This document shows, piece by piece, positions 2,080-60,895 of a DNA stretch of 64,000 bases. Numbering within the stretch: the first letter of the stretch is position 1; each line of letters starts with the position of its first letter. Source of the DNA: Candidatus Omnitrophota bacterium (lineage in GTDB: Bacteria; Omnitrophota; Gorgyraeia; Gygaellales; Profunditerraquicolaceae); contig JBDRLN010000061.1 in the NCBI GenBank assembly GCA_043812955.1, forward strand, positions 7,231 through 71,230, read 5' to 3'. Below the pieces are notes generated by a model, which was not told the origin of the DNA, did not search any database, and was given only the letters and a program-made list of their open reading frames with translations. The translations under genes and the position numbers were made by a program.

Positions 2080-2103
2080 TACTTTTTTAAATCGCCAGGA
2101 ATA

Positions 2104-2157
2104 GGGTTAGAATTATTTTTTCTATTTTCTACTCTGGTAAAAAATAATTCTGACCCC
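2104..2157. repeat. Family-A long palindromic element, copy 1 (GGGTTAGAATTATTTTTT ... AAAAAATAATTCTGACCCC)
   Basis: 18/19-bp inverted arms around a 17-nt loop. It shares arms with copies at 4409-4463 and 6133-6186. It lies between the lpd stop and the groES promoter. Confidence 0.8.
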
Positions 2158-2160
2158 ATT

Positions 2161-4381: not shown

Positions 4382-4408
4382 AATTCTCTACCTATACCTG
4401 TAAGATAT

Positions 4409-4463
4409 GGGGTCAGAATTATTTTTTACTTACATTTAGAATAAAAAAAATAATTCTGACCCC
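4409..4463. repeat. Family-A palindromic element, copy 2 (perfect 19-bp arms)
   Basis: GGGGTCAGAATTATTTTTT (4409-4427), a 17-nt loop, AAAAAATAATTCTGACCCC (4445-4463). It lies between the icd-like stop and the mdh start. Confidence 0.85.
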
Positions 4464-4470
4464 ATTATTT

Positions 4471-6123: not shown

Positions 6124-6132
6124 AACTTTATT

Positions 6133-6186
6133 GGGGTCAGAATTATTTCTTCTTTATTATACTTAGAAAAAAATAATTCTGACCCC
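6133..6186. repeat. Family-A palindromic element, copy 3
   Basis: GGGGTCAGAATTATTTCTTC ... GAAAAAAATAATTCTGACCCC, with one mismatch. It lies between the pilT stop and the leuD start. Confidence 0.8.
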
Positions 6187-6193
6187 AATTCCC

Positions 6194-12835: not shown

Positions 12836-12853
12836 TTTATTTCCTCCTTATAT

Positions 12854-12920
12854 CGGTTTTCGGTTTACGGTTTTCAGTTTACGGTATTGGCCGCTAACCG
12901 ATAACCGCTAACCGATAACC
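12854..12920. repeat. Family-D element, copy 1: tandem CGGTTTACGG-type units followed by complementary CCGATAACCG-type units
   Basis: cggttttcggtttacggttttcagtttacgg ... ccgctaaccgataaccgctaaccgataacc. Left and right halves are imperfect reverse complements. It sits just upstream of the rpsM SD. Confidence 0.75.
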
Positions 12921-19993: not shown

Positions 19994-20147
19994 GTCTTTT
20001 CCTTATATAGTTATTGCTGAAAAACCCAGCAATAACTTTATTTTGGAGATTTTTAAAAAGATTACAGAGATTTATCCGAGGATGTTTAATCTTGTAATCT
20101 GTATTTTAATCGCTGAAATCAAGTTAACACTGCTTTTTCAGTGTTAA
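19994..20147 (-). repeat. Structured rplN-rplX spacer: twin 10-bp hairpins (GTTAACACTG/CAGTGTTAAC and GTTATTGCTG/CAGCAATAAC) flanking family-C-like GATTACAG motifs
   Basis: Seen directly. The first hairpin follows the rplN stop and is followed by UUGAUUU. The second ends 16 nt before the rplX ATG. Confidence 0.7.
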
Positions 20148-20516
20148 CTATATGACTTCCGGGGCCAGGGAAATAATCTTAGTAAAATTCTTCTCGCGCA
20201 ATTCTTTGGCTACCGGGCCAAACACCCTTGTCCCCCTGGGATTCAACTGGGCGTCAATAATCACAATAGCATTACGGTCAAATCGTAGTATCGAACCATC
20301 AGCGCGCCGAATTGCCTCTTTAGTTCTGACTACTACCGCTTTAGCCACCTCTCCCTTTTTAACCACCGCGTCAGGAGATGATTCCTTAACACTGACATTA
20401 ATAATATCGCCGACCACGGCATTCATTGCGTTCTTTTTTCCCAATACTCCTATAAGGGAAGCCCTTTTTGCTCCGGTATTATCCGCTACGTCTAAAATAC
20501 TGCGCAATTGAATCAT
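20148..20516 (-). CDS. rplN: Ribosomal protein L14
   Basis: 122 aa, [17 protein letters not shown]... Confidence 0.9.
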
Positions 20517-20828: not shown

Positions 20829-21014
20829 TTATTTCTTTTCGCTTAAAATTGTTTTTATCCTGACAATATCCCTTTTAATTAATGAGAACCTGTGCGGTTT
20901 TTCTACCTGGCCGCCGTAACGCTGTAGGTTCATCTTATACAAATCCTCTTTAAGGGTTTTTTCTTTATTTATTAATTCTTCTCTGGATAGATTACGCAGC
21001 TCTTGTATCTTCAC
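20829..21014 (-). CDS. rpmC: Ribosomal protein L29 (GTG start)
   Basis: MKIQELRNLSREEL... The start codon GTG is at rc 21012-21014, embedded in the family-E hairpin arm. Confidence 0.85.
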   Translation of the reverse strand: MKIQELRNLSREELINKEKTLKEDLYKMNLQRYGGQVEKPHRFSLIKRDIVRIKTILSEKK

Positions 21015-21110
21015 CCCGCACCTTCCTTTTTTTCATAATTCTAAAACAGTTTGCCTTAAGGAATCTAATCTTTTGGAAGGTGCGGGGTTCATCCAGCACC
21101 TTCCTACTTA
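21014..21110 (-). repeat. Family-E element, copy 1: 13-bp GC hairpin (CCCCGCACCTTCC / GGAAGGTGCGGGG) plus a third CACCTTCC copy
   Basis: Plus 21014-21026 is the reverse complement of 21075-21087, and the motif recurs at 21097-21104. The mRNA 3' arm contains the rpmC SD and the first base of its GUG. Confidence 0.8.
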
Positions 21111-21518
21111 TTATTTATGCGCCCTGGTTACAAATTTAGTTTTAAATGGTAATTTATAAGCTATTAACCTGAAACACCTGCGGGCATACTCTTCCGGAAT
21201 ACCGCTTAACTCAAATAGTATTCTGCCTCTTTTAATAACACATACCCAATGATCAATATCGCCTTTGCCTTTACCCATACGTACTTCTGCCGGTTTTTTG
21301 GTTATAGATTTATCCGGAAAAACCCTAATCCATAGCCTCCCGCCTTTATGTAATTGCCTGGTCAGAACTACCCGACAGGCCTCAATCGTATTGTTCTTAA
21401 GCCAGCCGTTAACTAAAACCTTTAATCCAAACTCACCAAATGCCAGCTCCGCACCCCTGGTGGCTATTCCCCGGCGCTGTCCTTTTTGCAACTTCCTATA
21501 TTTTACTCTTTTGGGCAT
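21111..21518 (-). CDS. rplP: Ribosomal protein L16
   Basis: L16 homology from [17 protein letters not shown]. The track start at 21527 (MAL...) is also possible. Confidence 0.85.
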
Positions 21519-27135: not shown

Positions 27136-29232
27136 TTAACGTTGTTTTTGTCCTGAAGAGGCAAAACCCGATATAATTTTTTCAGATATATATAAAGGCA
27201 CCTCAGTGTAGTATGAGGGCTCCATTGTATAAGACGCGCGGCCCTGAGTCAAAGACCTGGATACCGTAGCGTAATTAAATATTTCAGCCAGGGGGACAAA
27301 TGTCTTGATCGCCCGGACATTAGCCCTGGGGTTGATCGAGACTATCTTGGCCCGACGAGAGCTTAAATCACCGATTATCACCCCCATAAATTCTTCAGGA
27401 ACAATTATCTCCATATTCATGATCGGCTCTAATAATACCGGATGGGCCTTGCGCATGCCGTCGGATAAAGCGATACTGGCAGCCATTTTAAAAGCCATTT
27501 CCGAGGAATCTACTTCATGAAACGATCCATCCACTAGTATAACCTTAACATCGGTAACCGGGTAATTAGCTAATACCCCGCTCTTGGCCCGGTCAAAAAT
27601 ACCGTCTTTTACCGAAGGTATAAACTCCTGGGGGATCGCCCCGCCTTTTATTTTATTTTCAAATGTGATTCCGGCGCCCGGTGCCTCCTGAGGCTCTATC
27701 TCAATAACTACATGTCCGTATTGACCCCTGCCGCCGGATTGCTGGATAAATTTTCCGGTAGAGGTAACTTTCTTAGTAATAGTCTCCCGGTAGGCGACTT
27801 CCGGAAACCCGGTCTGGACTTGGACATTAAATTCCCTAAATATCCTATCGGCAATAATCTCCAGATGTAATTGCCCCATTCCTGATATTACAGTCTGCCC
27901 GGTTTCATGGTTATAATTTACCCTGAAAGACGGGTCCTCTTCTACTAATTTATGCAAAGCCATACCCAATTTTTCCTGGTCATTCTTGGTCTTAGGCTCG
28001 ATCGCCTGCTGAATCACTGGCTCAGGAAAACGCATCGCCTCAATTAATATTGGGTTAGACTCTTCACAAAGCGTATCACCGGTTTTAGTGTCTTTTAAAC
28101 CCACGGCAGCTACAATATCGCCGGCAAAAGCCGATTCGATTATCTCTTGGCGGTTAGCGTGCATTCTCAATAATTTAGTAATTCTTTCTTTTTCTCTTTT
28201 GGATGCGTTATAAATATATTTACCTGAATTTAAAGTCCCGGAGTATATCCGGATATAATTGAGTTTACCAACAAAGGGATCAGTAGCGACCTTAAAGCAG
28301 AACGCACAAAAAGGGGCTTTCTCGCTAACCAGGATCTCCTCGAATTCGCCAGTCTTAGGATTGGTCCCTTTGATCGGAGGAACATCCTTAGGAGACGGAA
28401 GGTAATCACCGACGGCATCCAAGAGCATCTGAACGCCTTTATTTCTGAATGAAGAACCACAAAGAACTGGAATAAATTTATTCAAAGACACCGTCCTACG
28501 GATCACTTCTTTAATTTTAAGCGTAGTAATTTCTTGCTGGTGAAGATAAATCTCCAACATCTCGTCATCAACTTCAGCCAACTTCTCAATCAATAGGTTG
28601 CGGTAATGCTGTGCATCTTTCTTCAATTCTTCGGGTATCTCCAAAACCTCAAATTCCTTGCCGGTCTCTTCTTTATAGACTATAAGCTTATTCTCAACCA
28701 GATCGACTAGACCGTTAAAATTCTCTGCCTGGCCAAAGGGAAGCTGAATAGCTGCAGCGTTTGCCCCTAACATTTTATGCATCTGGTTAATTGTTTCTAT
28801 GAAATTCGCGCCGGTTCGGTCCATCTTGTTGACAAATGCGATCCGGGGTACACCGTAACGATCAGCCTGACGCCAGACTGTCTCTGATTGGGGCTCTACC
28901 CCGCCTACTCCGCAAAATACTATAATGGCCCCGTCTAAAACCTTAAGCGACCTCTCCACTTCCACGGTAAAATCAACGTGTCCGGGAGTATCGATAATAC
29001 TGATATAAAAATCCTTCCATAAACAGGTAGTAGCGGCAGCGGTAATAGTGATACCCCTCTCCTGCTCCTGAGCCATCCAATCCATTGTCGCTGTGCCTTC
29101 ATTAACCTCGCCTATCTTATAGGTCCTGCCGGTATAATAAAGGATCCGCTCGGTAGTAGTCGTCTTACCAGCGTCGATATGGGCGATGATCCCGATATTC
29201 CTGATCCTGTCTAATGGTATATGTCTATTCAT
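27136..29232 (-). CDS. fusA: Elongation factor G
   Basis: 698 aa. [13 protein letters not shown] and DTPGHVDF motifs. Confidence 0.95.
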
Positions 29233-29240
29233 ATTTTTCC

Positions 29241-29313
29241 GGGACGGTTCTCAAACCAAAGCTAAAGTGTCCCTTTTTTGGGGACAGTTTAAGATCAGTT
29301 TCAGAACCGTCCC
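29241..29313 (-). repeat. Family-G nested hairpin element, copy 1 (outer GGGACGGTTCT/AGAACCGTCCC, inner TGTCCC-tttttt-GGGACA)
   Basis: It fills the rpsG-fusA spacer (29233-29325) and ends 8 nt before the fusA ATG. Its homologue at 55376-55448 is about 85% identical. Confidence 0.8.
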
Positions 29314-38225: not shown

Positions 38226-38241
38226 CTTTACTCCTCCTTAT

Positions 38242-38310
38242 TTACGGTTAGCGGTGTTCGGTTTACGGTTATCGGTGTTCGGTCTAATCGCTCACCCGAT
38301 ACCCGCTAAC
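38242..38310. repeat. Family-D element, copy 3
   Basis: tacggttagcggtgttcggtttacggttatcggtgttcgg ... cacccgatacccgctaacc. It sits between rplJ and rplL. Confidence 0.75.
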
Positions 38311-38320
38311 CTAAAACCTA

Positions 38321-52915: not shown

Positions 52916-53030
52916 CCTAGTAGGTAGTATTTAGGGTTTCCCTAATACCTATCTATTAACTACCCTATACTGAATCAGTAGGTAGTATTTAATAAAAACC
53001 CTAACTCCTACCTACTACATACTAAATACT
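52916..53030. repeat. Family-F element, copy 2
   Basis: agtaggtagtattta repeated directly (52919-52933 and 52977-52991), and it ends with ccctaactcctacctactacatactaaatact. It sits between hisI and the trpE-like gene. Confidence 0.75.
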
Positions 53031-53364: not shown

Positions 53365-53374
53365 TTTTTATGAT

Positions 53375-53420
53375 CCCTAATTTGCCCTACCTACTACATA
53401 CTACCTACTATCTACTAAAT
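53375..53420. repeat. Family-F element, copy 3
   Basis: ccctaatttgccctacctactacatactacctactatctactaaat. It sits between hisF and hisI. Confidence 0.7.
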
Positions 53421-53421
53421 A

Positions 53422-54636: not shown

Positions 54637-55359
54637 CTATTTTAATCTCAAGGCCTGTCTTAAAATAAGCTTCTGCTCATATAAAGCCTTGCCTATTATT
54701 ATTCCGGTCAAACCAAACTTCTCTAGTTTTTTTAAACCAGCTACATCTTTAAGACAGGAAACGCCACCTGAAGCAATAACTCCTATTCTCGATTTTTGCA
54801 TAAGATCTTTTATGCCCCGCGTATTCGGGCCCTTAAGCATACCATCTTTTGATGTATCGGTATAAATAATTTCTTTAAACCGTAAACCTTTTAAATATAC
54901 GGCAAAGGTCAACAGGTCAAATCCCTTACATGTCCCTTTCCACCCCCTAGTTTTTATCCGGCTCCCTTTAGCGTCAATACTAACAATAATCCGGGACCCA
55001 AACTTATTACAAGCTTCTTTTAAGAAATCCCTATCCTCAATTGCCCTGGTCCCTAAAACCACCCGGTATACGCCAAAATTAAGCAATTCTTTTATTGTCT
55101 GAATATTTCTTACTCCGCCGCCAAATTCAACCGGTATATTTACGGAATTTAATATTTTCTTTAATAGCGACTTATTCTTAAGGACGCCGGAAAAAGCTCC
55201 GTCTAAATCCACCACGTGCAATAATTTAGCCCCCTGCCTTTCCCAACCTAAAGCGATCTCACAGGGATCCTGAGAATATTCAACCTTATCTTTAACCTTG
55301 CCCTGGCATAGCCTTACTACACAACCGTCTTTTAAATCTATTGCCGGTATTATTAGCAT
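54637..55359 (-). CDS. hisA: ProFAR isomerase HisA
   Basis: 240 aa, MLIIPAIDLKDGCVVRL... Confidence 0.9.
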   Translation of the reverse strand: MLIIPAIDLKDGCVVRLCQGKVKDKVEYSQDPCEIALGWERQGAKLLHVVDLDGAFSGVLKNKSLLKKILNSVNIPVEFGGGVRNIQTIKELLNFGVYRVVLGTRAIEDRDFLKEACNKFGSRIIVSIDAKGSRIKTRGWKGTCKGFDLLTFAVYLKGLRFKEIIYTDTSKDGMLKGPNTRGIKDLMQKSRIGVIASGGVSCLKDVAGLKKLEKFGLTGIIIGKALYEQKLILRQALRLK

Positions 55360-55375
55360 ATTTCCATATCAGGCA

Positions 55376-55448
55376 GGGACGGTTCTCAAGCCAAAGCTAA
55401 ACTGTCCCCAAAAAAGGGACACTTTAAGATCAAGTTAAGAACCGTCCC
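55376..55448 (-). repeat. Family-G nested hairpin element, copy 2 (central palindrome inverted relative to copy 1)
   Basis: The outer GGGACGGTTCT / AGAACCGTCCC arms match copy 1. The centre reads TGTCCCCAAAAAAGGGACA, against TGTCCCTTTTTTGGGGACA in copy 1. It fills the hisH-hisA spacer. Confidence 0.8.
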
Positions 55449-55454
55449 TGCATT

Positions 55455-56105
55455 TTATAATTCAACGAAGTTTTTCAATATTTTCAGTCCCACAGCCTGG
55501 CTTTTCTCAGGATGAAACTGCACACCGATTATATTATCCTGCCAGACCACAGAAGCAAAATTAATCCCATAATCAGTAGTGGCGGCAACTACGGCTTTAT
55601 CCTCAGGCTGCGGATAATAAGAATGGCAGAAATAAACATAAGGCTTCTCTGACAGCCCCCTTAATAACGGGCATTCCTTTATCCCTGGCCCCTTATCACC
55701 TTCCTGTCGCTGAGGCAGACTTATCCCTGTATTCAACTGGTTCCAACCCATATGCGGGACTTTTAAACCCCTACCAGGAACAAATTTTTTTACCTCTCCT
55801 CTTAATACTCCTAAGCCTTTAACGCCATTAGATTCTTCGCTAGTTTCAAATAACAGCTGCATGCCTAAACATATTCCTAAAAATATCTTCTTATGTTTTA
55901 TAGCATCAATAACAGCTGAAATTAAACCCTGCCTATCCATCTCGGATACAGCGTCAGCAAAAGCCCCCACACCGGGAAGGACTATCTTTTCGCATTTATT
56001 CAATACTTCAGGCTTATTAGTCAATAAAACCTTAGCGCCTAAAGACTTTAGAGCCTTTTGAACGCTATGGATGTTGCCCATTCCATAATCAATTATCCCG
56101 ATCAT
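55455..56105 (-). CDS. hisH: Imidazole glycerol phosphate synthase glutamine amidotransferase subunit
   Basis: 216 aa. GICLGMQLL catalytic Cys and the HPEKS motif. Confidence 0.9.
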   Translation of the reverse strand: MIGIIDYGMGNIHSVQKALKSLGAKVLLTNKPEVLNKCEKIVLPGVGAFADAVSEMDRQGLISAVIDAIKHKKIFLGICLGMQLLFETSEESNGVKGLGVLRGEVKKFVPGRGLKVPHMGWNQLNTGISLPQRQEGDKGPGIKECPLLRGLSEKPYVYFCHSYYPQPEDKAVVAATTDYGINFASVVWQDNIIGVQFHPEKSQAVGLKILKNFVEL

Positions 56106-56919: not shown

Positions 56920-58146
56920 TTACTCAAACCTGGCTTTAACCGATTCCAAATGCTGACCTAATCCTTCAATACTGGCAATTTTCTCCAGAGGCTCTCTTAA
57001 TTTCTCTAAATATTTTTTAGAATAGCCAATGACATGACTGCTTTTTACAAAATCCACGGCTGATAAACCGGAGAAAAATCTGGCAGTCCCTCCGGTTGGC
57101 AATACATGGCTTGGGCCGGCAACATAATCACCGATAGCTGTCGGGCTATATGGCCCCAGAAAAATTGCTCCGGCATTACGGATACCTTTTAATAAACGCT
57201 GGTAATTCTTTACTAGGATCTCTAAATGTTCCGGGGCAATCCTATTAGAAATCTCTACTGCTTCATCCAAATTTTTAGTTAAGATTATAAACCCGTTTAC
57301 ATCAACAGCCTTTGCTTTTATCTCCTTAGCTAAACCTTTAGAATTTGTAACCAGTATAGCCAGGCCATTAACGTGCTCGGCCTGGGCTTTTAAGTCAGCG
57401 ATAATGAATTTCGGGTCGCTGGAACGATTAGCGATTATTACCAGCTCAGTTGGTCCGGCGATCATATCAATATCCACCTGGCCAAAAACCTGCCGCTTTG
57501 CTTCATTAACATAAACATTACCAGGGCCGACGATTTTATCTACCCTGGGTATCGTCTTGGTCCCGTAAGCTAAAGCGGCTATCCCCTGAGCCCCGCCTAT
57601 CCGGTAGATCTCATCAACTTTTAAAAGATTAGCTACTACTAAAATATGAGGATTAATAAACCCTTGTTTATTCGGAGGGCTGATTAACACTATTTTTTTA
57701 ACTCCTGCGATTTTAGCCGGAAGCACAGTCATATAAACCGTAGAGACCAAAGGCGCCGTGCCTGCCGGTATATAAACCCCTAATTTATCGATTGGCTGGT
57801 AATTCTCCCCCAGGATTAAGCCTTCGCTGTCTTTTATCCTCCAAGATTTTTTCAGGGTCCTGCGGTAAAAACGATTGATATTATCAATGATTATTTTGAG
57901 GCTAGAGACAAAATTCGGGCTGATATTCTGGTAGGCGCCACTGACTTCGATAGCTGAAACCTTAATCTGACGGCCGGTTAACTTCACCTTGTCAAATTTA
58001 CGGGTATATTTTAAAACCGCTTCATCGCCCAGCAGGCGAACGTCATCGATTATCTGCCTAACCTTGTCTTCTACCCTCCTGGAACGGATTAGCCCCCGGT
58101 TATAAATCTTTTCTAATTTTTGGGAGTTCGAGCGGATTATCTTCAC
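56920..58146 (-). CDS. hisD: Histidinol dehydrogenase (GTG start)
   Basis: 408 aa. Start GTGAAGATA, preceded by GAAGGTGCGGG, the same module as rpmC. Confidence 0.85.
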   Translation of the reverse strand: MKIIRSNSQKLEKIYNRGLIRSRRVEDKVRQIIDDVRLLGDEAVLKYTRKFDKVKLTGRQIKVSAIEVSGAYQNISPNFVSSLKIIIDNINRFYRRTLKKSWRIKDSEGLILGENYQPIDKLGVYIPAGTAPLVSTVYMTVLPAKIAGVKKIVLISPPNKQGFINPHILVVANLLKVDEIYRIGGAQGIAALAYGTKTIPRVDKIVGPGNVYVNEAKRQVFGQVDIDMIAGPTELVIIANRSSDPKFIIADLKAQAEHVNGLAILVTNSKGLAKEIKAKAVDVNGFIILTKNLDEAVEISNRIAPEHLEILVKNYQRLLKGIRNAGAIFLGPYSPTAIGDYVAGPSHVLPTGGTARFFSGLSAVDFVKSSHVIGYSKKYLEKLREPLEKIASIEGLGQHLESVKARFE

Positions 58147-58225
58147 CCCGCACCTTCTTTCTTGATAAGAATTCCAGCACCATTTATCTTATAATCATTT
58201 AATTTTCTAGACGGTGCGATATTCA
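58141..58225 (-). repeat. Family-E element, copy 2 (cttcaccccgcaccttc spanning the hisD start; ttccagcacc; partial complement acggtgcg)
   Basis: An 18-mer identical to 21009-21026, and ggtgctgga also shared with copy 1. The upstream complementary arm is degenerate (6 bp: CGCACC/GGUGCG). Confidence 0.65.
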
Positions 58226-60895
58226 TTATAGCGCCTCAATAATCTTAATTAATTCCGCAAATGCTTGTGAAAAATTTTCAGGCCTAGTTCCGCCAGCCTG
58301 GGCAAAATCACTCCGTCCTCCGCCGCTTCCACCTAATACCGATGCTACCTGTTGCACGAATTTACCGGCGCTTAAACCCTGGTCAACTAAATCTTTAGTT
58401 AAACCGATAACTAGTATTGCCTTGTTATCTCTGACTGACCCTAAAGCAATGATCGCGTTATCAGTCTTTTGCTTGATCAGATCTACGGTTTTCCTCAGTA
58501 TATCCATCGATGAATCCTCGATAACTTTAGTGATGACTTTTTTTCCCTTTATTAACATTGCCTCCTGAACCAAACTGTCAACCCCAGAGGTTGCCACGGT
58601 TAATTTCTGAGAACTAAGCTGTTTCTCCATATCCCTGGCGCTAGAGAGCCTTTTTTGGACTTCCGAAACGATTTTTTCCATAGGCGCAGTTAAAATCGAA
58701 ACCAGCGATTCAATCACCTCTTCCTGTTTTTTAATCTCCTGATATGCCCCTAAACCCGTACGCGCCTCTATCCTTCTTACTCCGCTGGCAACCGAACCCT
58801 CGCTGATTATTTTAAATAAACCGATTGAGCCGGTATTATCCAAATGCGTCCCCGCGCAAAGCTCCTTAGAAACACCCTCAACTGAAACCACCCTGACTTT
58901 ATCATCATATTTCTCGCCAAAAAAAGCCAGGGCCCCAAGTTTTTTAGCCTGGATTAAAGACATCTCTTTCTTTTGCACTGGATGATTCTGGAGAATAAAA
59001 TCATTTACTAATTTCTCAATCCTATCCAACTCTCCTTTATCTATATTTTTAAAATGCGTAAAATCAAAACGCATCCTCTCCTGAGCAACCAATGAACCCT
59101 GTTGCTGCACATGAGGGCCTAAAACTTTTCTTAAAACTGCCTGCAAAAGATGGGTGGCGGTGTGATTCCTGGCTACCGACATCCGAAAATCATTATTCAG
59201 CTGCGCTAAAACTTCGTCGCCTTTTTTAAATTTACCCTGCTTAACTTTACCAAGATGGGCTGTCACTTCGCCTAATTTAACGCTGTTTGAGACTGCGAAT
59301 ATATTTTTACCCTTTACTATTTCACCGATATCTCCGACCTGCCCTCCGGACTCGCCATAAAAAACAGTCTGATCCAGAATAATAACTGCTTCTTCACCAG
59401 GCAATACCTGATTTTTCTCAATATATTCATTATCTAATATAATCAGTATCGAGGCATCAGTTAAATCTTTTGTATACCCCAAGAATTTAGTATTCTTAAC
59501 TCTGAGGGTAACTTGGCCACCAGAAAAAACATCGCCTTTCATTTTACTAAATGATTTTGAAAGGTTCTTCTGTTTATCAAGCTCATTTTGAAAAGATGCT
59601 TCAAAATTTTCGTTTACCTTGATATGCTTTTTATATAGCTCATCCTTGGTTATTTCCAAAGGGATGCCGTTAGTATCATATAATCTATAGCCGGAAATAC
59701 CTAAAGCCCCAGAGGTAGTTGAGCTAGCGCAAATATATCCTTCTATGTTTGGATCATTTTCTAGCCCTGTTTTAACTTTCTTAATTTCACTATCTACTAA
59801 AGCGCTACTCAAACGCAAGGTATTTATAAAATTATTTTCTTCGGCCAGAATAACCTCAGCAATATCTTCCCGGCGTTTATCCAGATCCGGATATGGATTC
59901 TTCATCACCGCTGATAATACCGGCACCAGGGTATAAAGAAATGCGGATTTTAAACCCATACCCCTTAAATGCATAATTGATTTACGGATCAATTTCCTGA
60001 CCACATAACCCCTGCCTTCATTTGAAGGCATGACGCCGTCGTATATAGCAAAAACTATTGCCCGTAAATGATCAGAAATAGCGTATAAATCTTTAGCGCC
60101 GGGTGATTTCTTTGCTGAGTTGCGGATTTCGTTGATTATCGGTTGAAACAAATCAGTCTCAAAATTATTACTTTTACCTTGCATAATCCGGGCTAACCTC
60201 TCTAATCCCATTCCGGTATCAATATTTTTTTTAGGCAAAGGTTCCAGCAGGCCGCCATCTTTACGGTTAAACTGAGTAAACACTAAGTTCCAAACCTCAA
60301 CAAATCTTCCACAGCTGCAAGCAGGCGAACATTCGGTCTTTTTACAGCCAATATCAGGGCCAAAATCCAGGAATATCTCCGAGCAGGGACCGCACGGCCC
60401 GTTAGGCCCTTTTTGTTTAGCCTCTGCCGGCCAAAAATTATCTTTATCCCCAAGTTTAACTATTTTTTTTCCCGGAATCTTAATTTTATCTCTCCAGATC
60501 TTATAGGCTTCATCATCATCCTGGTAAACCGAAACCCAAAGGTCTCCTTCTTTAATATTTAGCTCTTTAGTTAGAAACTCCCAGGCCCAGACAATCGCGT
60601 CTTCTTTAAAATAATCTCCGAAAGAAAAATTTCCCAGCATTTCAAAAAATGTATGGTGAGAATCAGTCTTGCCCACTTTATCCAAATCATCGGTGCGCAG
60701 GCAACGCTGGGAGCTAGCTGCCCGGGTAAAACCCGTAAGCTGACCCAGAAACTGTTTTTTAAACTGGTTCATCCCCGCCGGCGTAAATAAAACAGTCGGG
60801 TCATCCTTAGGCACTAAAGAGTCGCTTTCAACTAGCTTATGCTTTTTGGATTTAAAAAAGGTTAAAAATTTTTCTCTTAATATATCTGTCTTCAT
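58226..60895 (-). CDS. alaS: Alanine--tRNA ligase
   Basis: 889 aa. Class II core, editing domain HxxxH...CxxxH, C-terminal DHHA1. Confidence 0.9.
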   Translation of the reverse strand: MKTDILREKFLTFFKSKKHKLVESDSLVPKDDPTVLFTPAGMNQFKKQFLGQLTGFTRAASSQRCLRTDDLDKVGKTDSHHTFFEMLGNFSFGDYFKEDAIVWAWEFLTKELNIKEGDLWVSVYQDDDEAYKIWRDKIKIPGKKIVKLGDKDNFWPAEAKQKGPNGPCGPCSEIFLDFGPDIGCKKTECSPACSCGRFVEVWNLVFTQFNRKDGGLLEPLPKKNIDTGMGLERLARIMQGKSNNFETDLFQPIINEIRNSAKKSPGAKDLYAISDHLRAIVFAIYDGVMPSNEGRGYVVRKLIRKSIMHLRGMGLKSAFLYTLVPVLSAVMKNPYPDLDKRREDIAEVILAEENNFINTLRLSSALVDSEIKKVKTGLENDPNIEGYICASSTTSGALGISGYRLYDTNGIPLEITKDELYKKHIKVNENFEASFQNELDKQKNLSKSFSKMKGDVFSGGQVTLRVKNTKFLGYTKDLTDASILIILDNEYIEKNQVLPGEEAVIILDQTVFYGESGGQVGDIGEIVKGKNIFAVSNSVKLGEVTAHLGKVKQGKFKKGDEVLAQLNNDFRMSVARNHTATHLLQAVLRKVLGPHVQQQGSLVAQERMRFDFTHFKNIDKGELDRIEKLVNDFILQNHPVQKKEMSLIQAKKLGALAFFGEKYDDKVRVVSVEGVSKELCAGTHLDNTGSIGLFKIISEGSVASGVRRIEARTGLGAYQEIKKQEEVIESLVSILTAPMEKIVSEVQKRLSSARDMEKQLSSQKLTVATSGVDSLVQEAMLIKGKKVITKVIEDSSMDILRKTVDLIKQKTDNAIIALGSVRDNKAILVIGLTKDLVDQGLSAGKFVQQVASVLGGSGGGRSDFAQAGGTRPENFSQAFAELIKIIEAL

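What the first reader, a model, noticed from the sequence alone, without database searches (positions are those of the whole stretch)
58141..58225. hisD shares an identical 18-nt translation-initiation module with rpmC (both GTG starts, both begin M-K-I)
cttcaccccgcaccttc(c) at 58141-58158 equals 21009-21026. In mRNA sense both genes read GAAGGUGCGGGGUGAAGAUA..., with GUG as the start codon.

ggtgctgga is also shared upstream. Only a 6-bp complement (CGCACC) is present in this copy.

Two functionally unrelated genes, a ribosomal protein and a histidine-biosynthesis enzyme, carrying the same SD/start cassette suggests either a mobile initiation cassette or co-regulation by a common trans-acting factor, an sRNA or protein that recognises GGUGCGGGG.
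Basis: seen in the sequence. Interest (0 to 1): 0.55.

Follow-up and report, generated by a model that had tools for sequence, protein, structure and literature searches.

The report
Start-codon repeat element of Omnitrophota
The identical stretch at the starts of hisD and rpmC is the shared end of two copies of a roughly 80-base palindromic repeat that is scattered through Omnitrophota genomes, sits almost only on start codons, and carries its own ribosome-binding site and GTG start, which probably lets the interrupted gene keep being translated.

Summary
A 20-nt exact repeat (21006-21025 = 58138-58157) covers the SD and GTG start of rpmC and hisD. It is neither chance nor a two-site oddity.

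Both sites are full copies of a ~75-105-nt hairpin element: ATGAA | ACCCCGCACCTTC(T/C) ... AT-rich interior ... (A/G)GAAGGTGCGGGGT | GAA. An HMM built only from copies in other genomes hits the window exactly at these two leaders.

A 19-mer from the right end occurs in at least 115 stretches of Omnitrophota MAGs, against about 9 expected by chance, with up to 11 or more per genome. In essentially every case its GTG is the start of a real, unrelated gene (rpmJ, rpmC, gatB, tig, purA, tsf and others).

The left flank keeps the original SD and ATGAA. This now opens a short ORF (MNPAPS...KKEGAG). In 30 of 59 independent copies it stops at the TGA overlapping the new GTG (3.2 expected).

Near-identical strains differ by presence or absence of the element (99.7% identical flanks).

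Best reading: a MITE-like, start-codon-specific mobile repeat with a built-in RBS and a coupled uORF. It is functionally analogous to mycobacterial MIRUs but unrelated in sequence, and I found no description of it. M-K-I is ancestral in both proteins, and no trans factor is needed.

The parts
21010..21092 (-). Element copy 1 (rpmC leader), full length: ATGAA, left arm, interior, right arm, GTGAA
   Evidence: nhmmer with an HMM built from 61 copies in other genomes: HMM positions 1-87, E = 1.9e-11. Sequence read.
21075..21088 (-). Left arm ACCCCGCACCTTCC of copy 1. It pairs perfectly over 14 bp with the right arm.
   Evidence: element alone folds at -34.9 kcal/mol.
21013..21026 (-). Right arm GGAAGGTGCGGGGT of copy 1. 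It holds the SD-like GGAAGGTG and the G and T of the rpmC GTG start (21012-21014).
21033..21092 (-). Short ORF of copy 1, MNPAPSKRLDSLRQTVLEL*. It starts at the presumed original ATG and stops 18 nt before the rpmC GTG.
   Evidence: The family-wide MNPAPS...
21093..21104 (-). Solo right-arm remnant GGAAGGTGCTGG directly before the ATGAA of copy 1. It is read as the relic of an earlier copy and now serves as the SD for the short ORF.
   Evidence: The same arrangement (right end of one copy abutting the next copy) is seen in L014, L023, L046, L071 and L091. The 21-nt alternative hairpin is I20.
20829..21014 (-). rpmC (ribosomal protein L29), GTG start
   Evidence: PF00831 homologues.
58142..58226 (-). 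Element copy 2 (hisD leader), full length with a decayed left arm
   Evidence: nhmmer HMM positions 9-87 at 58218-58142, E = 7.8e-8. The extension to the ATGAA at 58222-58226 was read from the sequence.
58143..58226 (-). Short ORF of copy 2, MNIAPSRKLNDYKINGAGILIKKEGAG*. Its ATG (58224-58226) overlaps the alaS stop TAA (58226-58228). Its TGA (58143-58145) overlaps the hisD GTG (58144-58146).
58210..58221 (-). Decayed left arm TATCGCACCGTC of copy 2.
58173..58181 (-). Inner arm-like GGTGCTGGA. In the predicted fold it pairs with the decayed left arm and leaves the terminal SD free.
   Evidence: Inner GGTGYGGG copies are common in other members, for example L024, L084, L097 and L118.
58145..58158 (-). 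Right arm AGAAGGTGCGGGGT of copy 2. It holds the SD-like AGAAGGTG and the G and T of the hisD GTG start.
56920..58146 (-). hisD (histidinol dehydrogenase), GTG start
   Evidence: PF00815; 100% identical to an NCBI Candidatus Omnitrophota MAG protein.

Best explanation
The two identical initiation modules are the right termini of two copies of one dispersed, MITE-like palindromic repeat family of Candidatus Omnitrophota.

Anatomy. An element is about 75-105 nt long. It has a 14-nt left arm ACCCCGCACCTTC(T/C), a variable AT-rich interior and a 14-nt right arm (A/G)GAAGGTGCGGGGT. TGAA lies on both sides.

Location (shown). The element sits on start codons. The left flank keeps the gene's original SD and ATGAA. 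On the right, the last G of the element plus the second TGAA makes GTG-AAx, which is the present start of the gene. The right arm supplies a new SD-like AGAAGGTG six nt upstream of that start.

Mechanism (inferred). The old ATG opens a short ORF (MNPAPS...KKEGAG) that runs through the element. In about half of the independent copies it ends at the TGA overlapping the new GTG (GTGA, a -4 overlap). Ribosomes that start at the old site melt the 14-bp stem that otherwise buries the SD and GTG. They terminate on the new start and re-initiate there. The interrupted gene stays expressed, and the insertion is tolerated even in ribosomal-protein operons.

The two window copies. At hisD the chain is complete: alaS stop TAATG, a 27-codon ORF, then GTGA into hisD. 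At rpmC the stem is perfect and the short ORF ends 18 nt before the GTG.

Status of each step. Shown: repeat-family membership, start-codon location, the bias in the frame of the short ORF, and presence/absence polymorphism. Inferred: mobility by transposition into (A)TGAA, and translational coupling. Unknown: the enzyme that moves the element.
For: Family membership. An HMM built from 61 copies in other genomes hits the window only at 21092-21010 (E = 1.9e-11) and 58218-58142 (E = 7.8e-8), plus the reverse-strand image of the first.

Copy number. My arithmetic gives about 9 by chance. Nearly all hits are Omnitrophota MAGs. One MAG (LacPavin_0419_WC90_MAG_41_16) has at least 11.

Start-codon association. 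107 of 118 copies have an in-frame ORF of at least 60 codons from the GTG. The other two frames give 0 and 7. Of the other 11, 5 are rpmJ (37 codons), 4 are the upstream member of a tandem pair, and 2 are non-Omnitrophota chance hits. About 22 of 32 further copies found by the HMM, which were not selected by the 19-mer, also end exactly on an RTG that opens a long ORF. In the window only 19% of non-coding TGAA sites are at start codons.

Original start retained. The left end lies within 170 nt in 89 of 118 copies, and is preceded by A (ATGAA) in 64 of those 89. Purine-rich SD-like sequence lies upstream.

Empty sites carry a single ATGAA: L009 rpmC, L006 and L007 hisD, and the window's hisI.

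Polymorphism. L009 and L010 encode the same L29 and are 712/714 identical, apart from one 96-nt block that holds the element. L001 and L003 carry a copy at hisI that the window lacks.

Whole-element copying. 39 pairs of copies have 80-100% identical interiors at non-orthologous genes.

Short ORF. Of 59 ortholog-deduplicated copies with a left ATG, 38 have the GTGA stop in register (19.7 expected, p = 1e-6). 30 are open up to it (3.2 expected overall; 7.05 expected among those in register).

Stem. 90 of 94 full copies keep at least 13 of 14 arm pairs, and the SD and GUG are paired in the predicted fold.

GTG comes from the element. Only 4 of 65 window ORFs start with GTG. The 97% relative has reverted to ATG (GCGGGATGAAG).

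Precedent. MIRUs 'insert themselves at start codons' with a coupled ORF at -4 (PMC12548453).
Against: No transposase or long element with these ends was found in about 1 Mb of fetched Omnitrophota DNA. Mobility is therefore inferred from distribution only.

The ends are much better conserved than the interiors. That fits selection on function (SD, stem) at least as well as recent transposition.

The L009/L010 difference is not a clean single insertion. It is 96 nt: a 17-nt arm remnant plus one copy. It could equally be a deletion in L009.

TGAA on the right was part of the search pattern. Covarying flanks are few: TGAG/TGAG twice and TTAA/TTAA once.

Half of the copies, including the rpmC copy, do not have the -4 overlap.

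The predicted empty hisD site was not found in close relatives.

The 16S 3' tail of this organism was not available, so the SD pairing assumes the canonical tail.

There are no expression data.
Confidence: 0.8

Rival explanations
1. A non-mobile, selected cis-regulatory leader. In this reading the hairpin with its leader peptide is a translational switch placed in front of many genes, for example attenuation by ribosome stalling on MNPAPS, an RNA thermometer, or the binding site of a protein or sRNA that recognises GGUGCGGGG. Its repeated occurrence would reflect recruitment and selection, not transposition.
For: The arms and the frame of the short ORF are conserved while the interiors drift. 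The SD and GUG are sequestered in about 90 of 94 copies. No transposase was found. Orthologous genes in different species, such as rpmJ in six genomes, carry the element with different interiors.
Against: The genes share no pathway: rpmJ, gatB, purA, tig, pgsA, hisD and others. Strains with 99.7% identical flanks differ by presence or absence. 39 pairs of copies have 80-100% identical, non-selected interiors at non-orthologous genes. Tandem and nested copies and solo ends are typical of repeats. Direct TGAA flanks are present, and empty sites carry a single ATGAA. The complement is in cis, and no separate sense-strand CCCCGCACC locus exists in the window. There is no Rfam family. Domestication after spread remains compatible with the main explanation.
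Confidence: 0.12
2. Chance or convergence. In this reading two genes that both begin M-K-I independently evolved the same SD, spacer and GTG.
For: Both protein families begin MKI ancestrally, so GTGAAGATA can coincide. GAAGGTG is SD-like.
Against: 0.02 matches are expected for the 17-mer. Homology extends across about 80 nt and is detected by an HMM from other genomes. Twenty-two identical nt lie upstream of the start in L003 hisD and L010 rpmC. There are more than 115 further copies. The GC-rich spacer CGGG and the GTG start are atypical for this genome's initiation regions.
Confidence: 0.01
3. A private event in this genome only. In this reading the rpmC leader was copied onto hisD, or the reverse, by ectopic recombination or gene conversion, with no wider family.
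For: Copies do seem to exchange. The interior of the window's hisD copy is closest (79%) to the hisI copy of the 97% relative L001, while L001's own hisD leader has a different interior.
Against: The hisD right end is shared by relatives at 97% and 92% HisD identity. The family is present at dozens of other genes in dozens of genomes.
Confidence: 0.03

Closest known systems
Mycobacterial interspersed repetitive units (MIRUs; Supply et al. 1997, as summarised in PMC12548453 and PMC3184786)
   Same: Both are short (40-100 bp) dispersed repeats inside operons. [quoted passage not shown] This is thought to minimise the effect on expression. Tetranucleotide direct repeats flank filled sites. The Omnitrophota element shows the same logic.
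   Different: The phylum is unrelated, and no sequence relation is expected (AT-rich here, GC-rich in MIRUs); this was not tested. This element is one long hairpin whose 14-nt arms sequester the SD and start. It replaces ATG by GTG and brings a defined SD. The copies seen here are mostly single, not the tandem arrays used for VNTR typing.
Bacterial MITEs (Correia/NEMIS, ERIC, RUP, Nezha and others)
   Same: Both are small, have terminal inverted repeats and short direct repeats at the flanks, and have many copies per genome. Both show filled and empty sites, fold into long RNA stem-loops, occur nested or in tandem, and have ORFs fused to neighbouring genes (PMC3184786; here).
   Different: The location on start codons is near-exclusive, and the non-palindromic 4-nt flank (TGAA) is fixed. 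The interior is far more variable than the ends. No parent IS was identified.
Neisseria REP2 (CREN) and Borrelia IR repeats
   Same: [quoted passage not shown]
   Different: REP2 has no terminal inverted repeats, carries a promoter, and marks a co-regulated gene set. Here no sense promoter was detected, the genes are unrelated housekeeping genes, and the element keeps the old start as a short ORF.
SD-sequestering leaders with a leader peptide, and termination-reinitiation coupling at ATGA/GTGA overlaps (PMC6728339, PMC12548453)
   Same: A stem buries the SD and start codon. Translation of an upstream ORF opens it, and the stop and start codons overlap by 4 nt.
   Different: Those are gene-specific leaders that evolved in place. 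Here the same device is a portable repeat present at many genes.
REP/REPIN elements mobilised by RAYT, and IS200/IS605-type elements with a fixed tetra- or pentanucleotide target
   Same: Both are hairpin-forming, non-coding, multi-copy elements. A fixed short sequence next to the hairpin (here TGAA) recalls GTAG of REPs or TTAC/TTGAT targets. This comparison rests on my own knowledge.
   Different: The arms are not palindromes in themselves. No RAYT or TnpA was seen. TGAA occurs on both sides like a target duplication. REPs lie mostly 3' of genes, not on start codons.

Membership tests
MITE (miniature inverted-repeat transposable element) | Small (less than about 400 bp) and without a transposase gene | tested here: met
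   Elements are about 75-105 nt. Their only ORF is the 18-34-codon MNPAPS... frame.
MITE (miniature inverted-repeat transposable element) | Terminal inverted repeats | tested here: met
   The arms are 14 nt, and at least 13 of 14 positions pair in 90 of 94 full copies. The window's rpmC copy pairs at 14 of 14.
MITE (miniature inverted-repeat transposable element) | Target-site duplication, shown by filled versus empty sites | tested here: inconclusive
   About 75 copies have TGAA on both sides, and empty sites have one ATGAA. However, the right TGAA was in the search pattern. Covarying variants are few (TGAG/TGAG twice, TTAA/TTAA once). The only near-identical filled/empty pair differs by 96 nt, which is a copy plus a 17-nt remnant.
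MITE (miniature inverted-repeat transposable element) | Many dispersed copies per genome at non-homologous sites | tested here: met
   At least 115 stretches were found. Single MAGs have at least 11, 6, 5, 5 and 5. 39 pairs have 80-100% identical interiors at different genes.
MITE (miniature inverted-repeat transposable element) | A related autonomous IS with the same ends | tested here: not met
   No orphan left and right ends lie 400-5000 nt apart in about 1 Mb of loci. This is a small sample of each genome, so it is weak negative evidence.
MIRU-like start-codon repeat | Located at the start codon of a gene, usually inside an operon | tested here: met
   Effectively 116 of 116 Omnitrophota copies are at real starts or in tandem before one. 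The window copies lie between rplP and rpmC and between alaS and hisD.
MIRU-like start-codon repeat | An internal ORF whose stop overlaps the downstream start (-4) | tested here: met
   30 of 59 independent copies, against 3.2 expected. The window's hisD copy has it. The rpmC copy does not.
MIRU-like start-codon repeat | Sequence homology to mycobacterial MIRUs | not tested
None is expected given the composition and the phylum. I file it as 'works like', not as a member.
Neisseria REP2 / CREN | Carries a promoter as well as an RBS and ATG, and marks a co-regulated gene set | tested here: not met
   There is no sense-strand promoter-like site inside either window copy. The genes are functionally unrelated.
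Any curated RNA family (Rfam 15) | Match at or above the gathering score | tested here: not met
   Only two tRNAs pass in the window. The best hits on the two leaders have E = 0.2 at 19 bits, against cut-offs of 65-105.

The most novel reading that the evidence does not exclude
A phylum-wide class of mobile element that homes specifically to translation-initiation sites. It would recognise SD plus ATGAA, not merely TGAA. The host would then have kept it as an obligatory coupling device: a 14-bp stem that forbids independent initiation, so that dozens of housekeeping genes, including ribosomal-protein genes, are translated only by ribosomes handed over from upstream. This would be a natural, portable 'bicistronic design' cassette. 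It would also be a new target-selection principle for prokaryotic transposable elements.
Probability: 0.3. Interest if true: 0.8.

Novelty: new variant of a known kind. Interest (0 to 1): 0.62.

Why it matters
Annotation. In Omnitrophota MAGs dozens of genes per genome would have GTG starts, short upstream ORFs and expanded intergenic spacers that come from one repeat. Gene callers will misplace starts or call spurious small proteins. For example, the window's own L29 was not among the proteins returned by the homologue search (best hit 93% identical), and an exact look-up of its HisD sequence failed.

Biology. This would be a second, independent case after MIRUs of a selfish repeat that survives on start codons by rebuilding the initiation site and coupling translation. 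That suggests a general strategy, not a mycobacterial curiosity. It also offers about 100 natural sequence variants of an SD-sequestering stem with a coupled ORF for studying termination-reinitiation.

Practical use. Presence/absence differences between 99.7%-identical strains could serve as strain markers, as MIRU loci do. The cassette resembles engineered bicistronic expression designs.

Tried and rejected
1. Exact look-up of the window's HisD in the contig index found nothing. Relatives were reached through the homologue search instead.

2. I tested whether the hisD leader forms an SD-sequestering hairpin like the rpmC leader. It does not: z = -0.15. Its left arm is decayed and pairs with an inner arm.

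3. I considered a ribosomal-protein autoregulatory leader or another known RNA family. No Rfam match was found.

4. I looked for a promoter or terminator carried by the element. None was found in sense orientation.

5. I searched the fetched loci for an autonomous parent element. There was no candidate.

6. I searched JGI metagenomes for the predicted empty hisD site (GGCGCTATAATGAARATAATCCGC). There were 0 hits, so a clean filled/empty pair at hisD among close relatives is still missing.

7. I tested for selected secondary structure in the interior. It is not significant: mean z = -0.59.

8. A duplex-energy calculation of the right arm against a canonical 16S tail gave -14.5 to -15.2 kcal/mol, comparable to the window's canonical SDs. 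The predicted pairing was bulged, and the tail sequence was assumed, so I do not rely on it.

9. GGAAGGTGCGG resembles the h45/3' region of Bacillus-type 16S rRNA (recalled from memory). No 16S 3' end from an Omnitrophota genome was among the loci; the one tail-like match, in the Roseicyclus chance hit L038, was not examined, so this stays an unexplained observation.

10. Literature searches for an Omnitrophota repeat or a start-codon MITE found no description of this family. Only the MIRU and REP2 analogies emerged.
Full report
**1. The observation**

The + strand 17-mer CTTCACCCCGCACCTTC occurs exactly twice in the window, at 21009-21025 and 58141-58157. 0.02 matches are expected by chance. 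The maximal exact repeat is 20 nt, 21006-21025 = 58138-58157. In mRNA sense (all genes here are on the minus strand) it reads GAAGGTGCGGGGTGAAGATA.

It covers the start of rpmC (L29, 20829-21014) and of hisD (56920-58146). Both start with GTG and both begin M-K-I. GGTGCTGGA is also found only in these two leaders.

Only 4 of 65 long ORFs in the window start with GTG. The usual initiation region is AAGGAGG, an A-rich spacer and ATG. The two sites are therefore atypical for this genome.

**2. The local anatomy**

*rpmC leader.* This is the 96 nt between the rplP stop at 21111 and the GTG at 21014. It holds an inverted copy of the module, ACCCCGCACCTTCC (21075-21088). This pairs over 14 bp with GGAAGGTGCGGGGT, which is the SD plus the first two bases of GTG. 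The fold is -41.5 kcal/mol with z = -4.2.

Just upstream lies a direct near-copy, GGAAGGTGCTGG-ATGAA. Its ATG opens a 19-codon ORF, MNPAPSKRLDSLRQTVLEL.

*hisD leader.* This is 79 nt and is not significantly structured (z = -0.15). It contains a 27-codon ORF, MNIAPSRKLNDYKINGAGILIKKEGAG. The ORF's ATG overlaps the alaS stop (TAATG). Its TGA overlaps the hisD GTG (GTGA).

**3. Organism and orthologues**

HisD is 100% identical to a protein of an NCBI Candidatus Omnitrophota MAG. MKI is the ancestral N-terminus of both families. 106 of 120 HisD homologues start MKI, and MKIQELRNLS is the commonest L29 start. The element therefore did not bring M-K-I.

Close relatives keep the hisD module with small changes:
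- The 97% relative has ...AAGAAAGAAGGTGCGGGATGAAGATA, with ATG restored.
- The 92% relative has ...ATGAATAAGAAGGAAGGTGCGGCATGAAAATA.

At 81% identity alaS and hisD abut or overlap, and there is no leader.

For rpmC, two contigs encode the same L29 protein and are 712/714 identical. They differ by one 96-nt block. L010 has the hairpin leader, and L009 reads ...CATAAATAAAATGAAAATACAAG.

L003 hisD and L010 rpmC share 22 identical nt upstream of the start. This is homology, not convergence.

**4. A dispersed family**

I scanned the GTDB representative genomes for AARGAAGGTGCGGGGTGAA. My arithmetic gives about 9 chance hits in 596 Gb. Nearly all are in Omnitrophota MAGs, with up to 11 or more in one MAG.

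Read in context, almost every match is the right end of a hairpin element:

(A)TGAA - CCCCGCACCTTCT - AT-rich interior of variable length - GAATAAG - AAAGAAGGTGCGGGG - TGAA

An HMM built from 61 of these copies, none from the window, hits the window exactly at the two leaders. The hits are 21092-21010 (full length, E = 1.9e-11) and 58218-58142 (E = 7.8e-8). Both window sites are therefore ordinary members of this family.

**5. Strict association with start codons**

From the terminal GTG, 107 of 118 copies open an ORF of at least 60 codons. The other two frames give 0 and 7. The 11 exceptions are:
- five rpmJ genes (37 codons);
- four upstream members of tandem copies;
- two non-Omnitrophota chance hits.

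The genes are unrelated: rpmJ, rpmC, gatB, shikimate-kinase-like, RluD-like, tig, purA, scpA, tsf, hom, pgsA, hisD and hisI.

Thirty-two further copies were found by the HMM in the flanks and so were not selected by the 19-mer. About 22 of them likewise end on an RTG that opens a long ORF. The rest are mostly upstream members of tandem arrays or are partial or degenerate.

In the window only 14 of 75 non-coding TGAA sites are at start codons. 'TGAA plus tolerance' does not explain the distribution (binomial p about 1e-72 for at least 110 of 116).

**6. Signs of insertion**

- The left flank is ATGAA in 64 of 89 copies with a recognisable left end. It is preceded by SD-like purines.
- TGAA flanks both sides in about 75 copies. 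A few variants covary: TGAG/TGAG twice and TTAA/TTAA once.
- Empty orthologous sites carry one ATGAA.
- Thirty-nine pairs of copies have 80-100% identical interiors at non-orthologous genes.
- Tandem copies, nested copies and solo right ends occur. This includes the solo arm in front of the window's rpmC copy.
- L001 and L003 have a copy at hisI that the window lacks. The interior of the window's hisD copy is closest (79%) to that hisI copy.

No parent element or transposase was found.

**7. How the gene stays expressed (inference)**

The right arm gives AGAAGGTG six nt before the start. Its last G turns the second TGAA into GTGAA.

The arms pair at 13 or more of 14 positions in 90 of 94 full copies. 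This buries the SD and GUG. The interior shows no selected structure.

The old ATG opens an ORF across the element. Among 59 ortholog-deduplicated copies, the TGA of GTGA is in register in 38 (19.7 expected, p = 1e-6). Thirty of those are open to it (7.05 expected from interior shuffles). Overall this is 30 observed against 3.2 expected.

This is the signature of termination-reinitiation coupling at a -4 overlap (PMC6728339, PMC12548453). Ribosomes from the old site open the stem and are delivered to the new start.

No sense promoter or terminator lies in either window copy.

**8. Comparison with known systems**

There is no Rfam family. Literature searches found no description of an Omnitrophota repeat.

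The closest known system is the mycobacterial MIRU. It is described as mobile, as inserting at start codons, and as having an ORF coupled at -4 (PMC12548453; PMC3184786). In form the element is MITE-like: inverted terminal arms, short direct flanks, many copies, and filled and empty sites.

Neisseria REP2 and Borrelia IR repeats also donate an RBS and ATG. They carry promoters and lack terminal inverted repeats.

I therefore file the element as working like a MIRU and built like a MITE. It is a member of neither by sequence, and its mobilising enzyme is unknown.

**9. Verdict**

The finding is a window onto an apparently undescribed, phylum-wide family of repeats on start codons. It is a new variant of a known kind, of moderate to high interest. 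It has practical consequences for gene calling in Omnitrophota MAGs.

Noticed in passing
window 20005-20153: A 145-nt insertion between rplN and rplX with 20-nt inverted ends (ATATAGTTATTGCTGAAAAA / TTTTTCAGTGTTAACTATAT), flanked by TATA. It is absent from the related contig L009, where the two genes are 9 nt apart. It looks like a second, unrelated MITE inside the ribosomal-protein operon.
   Followed up: partly
window 29241-29313 and 55366-55458: Two copies of another palindromic repeat (GGGACGGTTCTC...GAGAACCGTCCC). Each lies directly upstream of a start codon (fusA ATG at 29232, hisA ATG at 55359). The same motif is nested inside copies of the start-codon element in another Omnitrophota MAG (L017, L031, L044, L080, L113).
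   Followed up: no
window 2100-2160, 4407-4465, 6130-6189: Three copies of a ~60-nt perfect or near-perfect palindrome (ATGGGGTCAGAATTATTTTTT ... AAAAAATAATTCTGACCCCAT) in intergenic spacers.
   Followed up: no
window 12851-12917 and 38241-38316; 52918-53017 and 53365-53421: Further intergenic palindromes or repeats: a CGGTT-rich type and a TAGTAGGTAG type. The second type occupies the hisF-hisI spacer, where relatives L001 and L003 instead carry a copy of the start-codon element.
   Followed up: no
L001 9920-10000 and L003 2950-3030 (alaS-hisD spacer of close relatives): In the 97% and 92% relatives the hisD leader has a different interior: a hairpin CCCCGC(T/A)CTTTTGG ... CCAAAAGGGCGGG(G/A) followed by a free terminal arm. 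The start codon is ATG there, not GTG. This suggests rapid turnover or conversion of the element's interior and reversion of the start codon.
   Followed up: partly
window 21013-21026 / 58145-58158 (right arm): GGAAGGTGCGG in the arm matches, from memory, the loop and 3' strand of helix 45 near the 3' end of Bacillus-type 16S rRNA (GGAAGGTGCGGCTGGATCACCTCC). The solo arm at rpmC (GGAAGGTGCTGGATGAAC) extends the resemblance. No 16S 3' end from an Omnitrophota genome was among the fetched loci, so I could not tell whether this is coincidence.
   Followed up: partly
L024, L034, L050, L056, L060, L072: Full copies of the element occur in MAGs deposited as 'uncultured Planctomycetia/Planctomycetales bacterium', and in 'bacterium UBP18_UBA7526' and 'bacterium CSMAG_2758'. 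Either these bins are mislabelled Omnitrophota or the family extends to neighbouring lineages.
   Followed up: no
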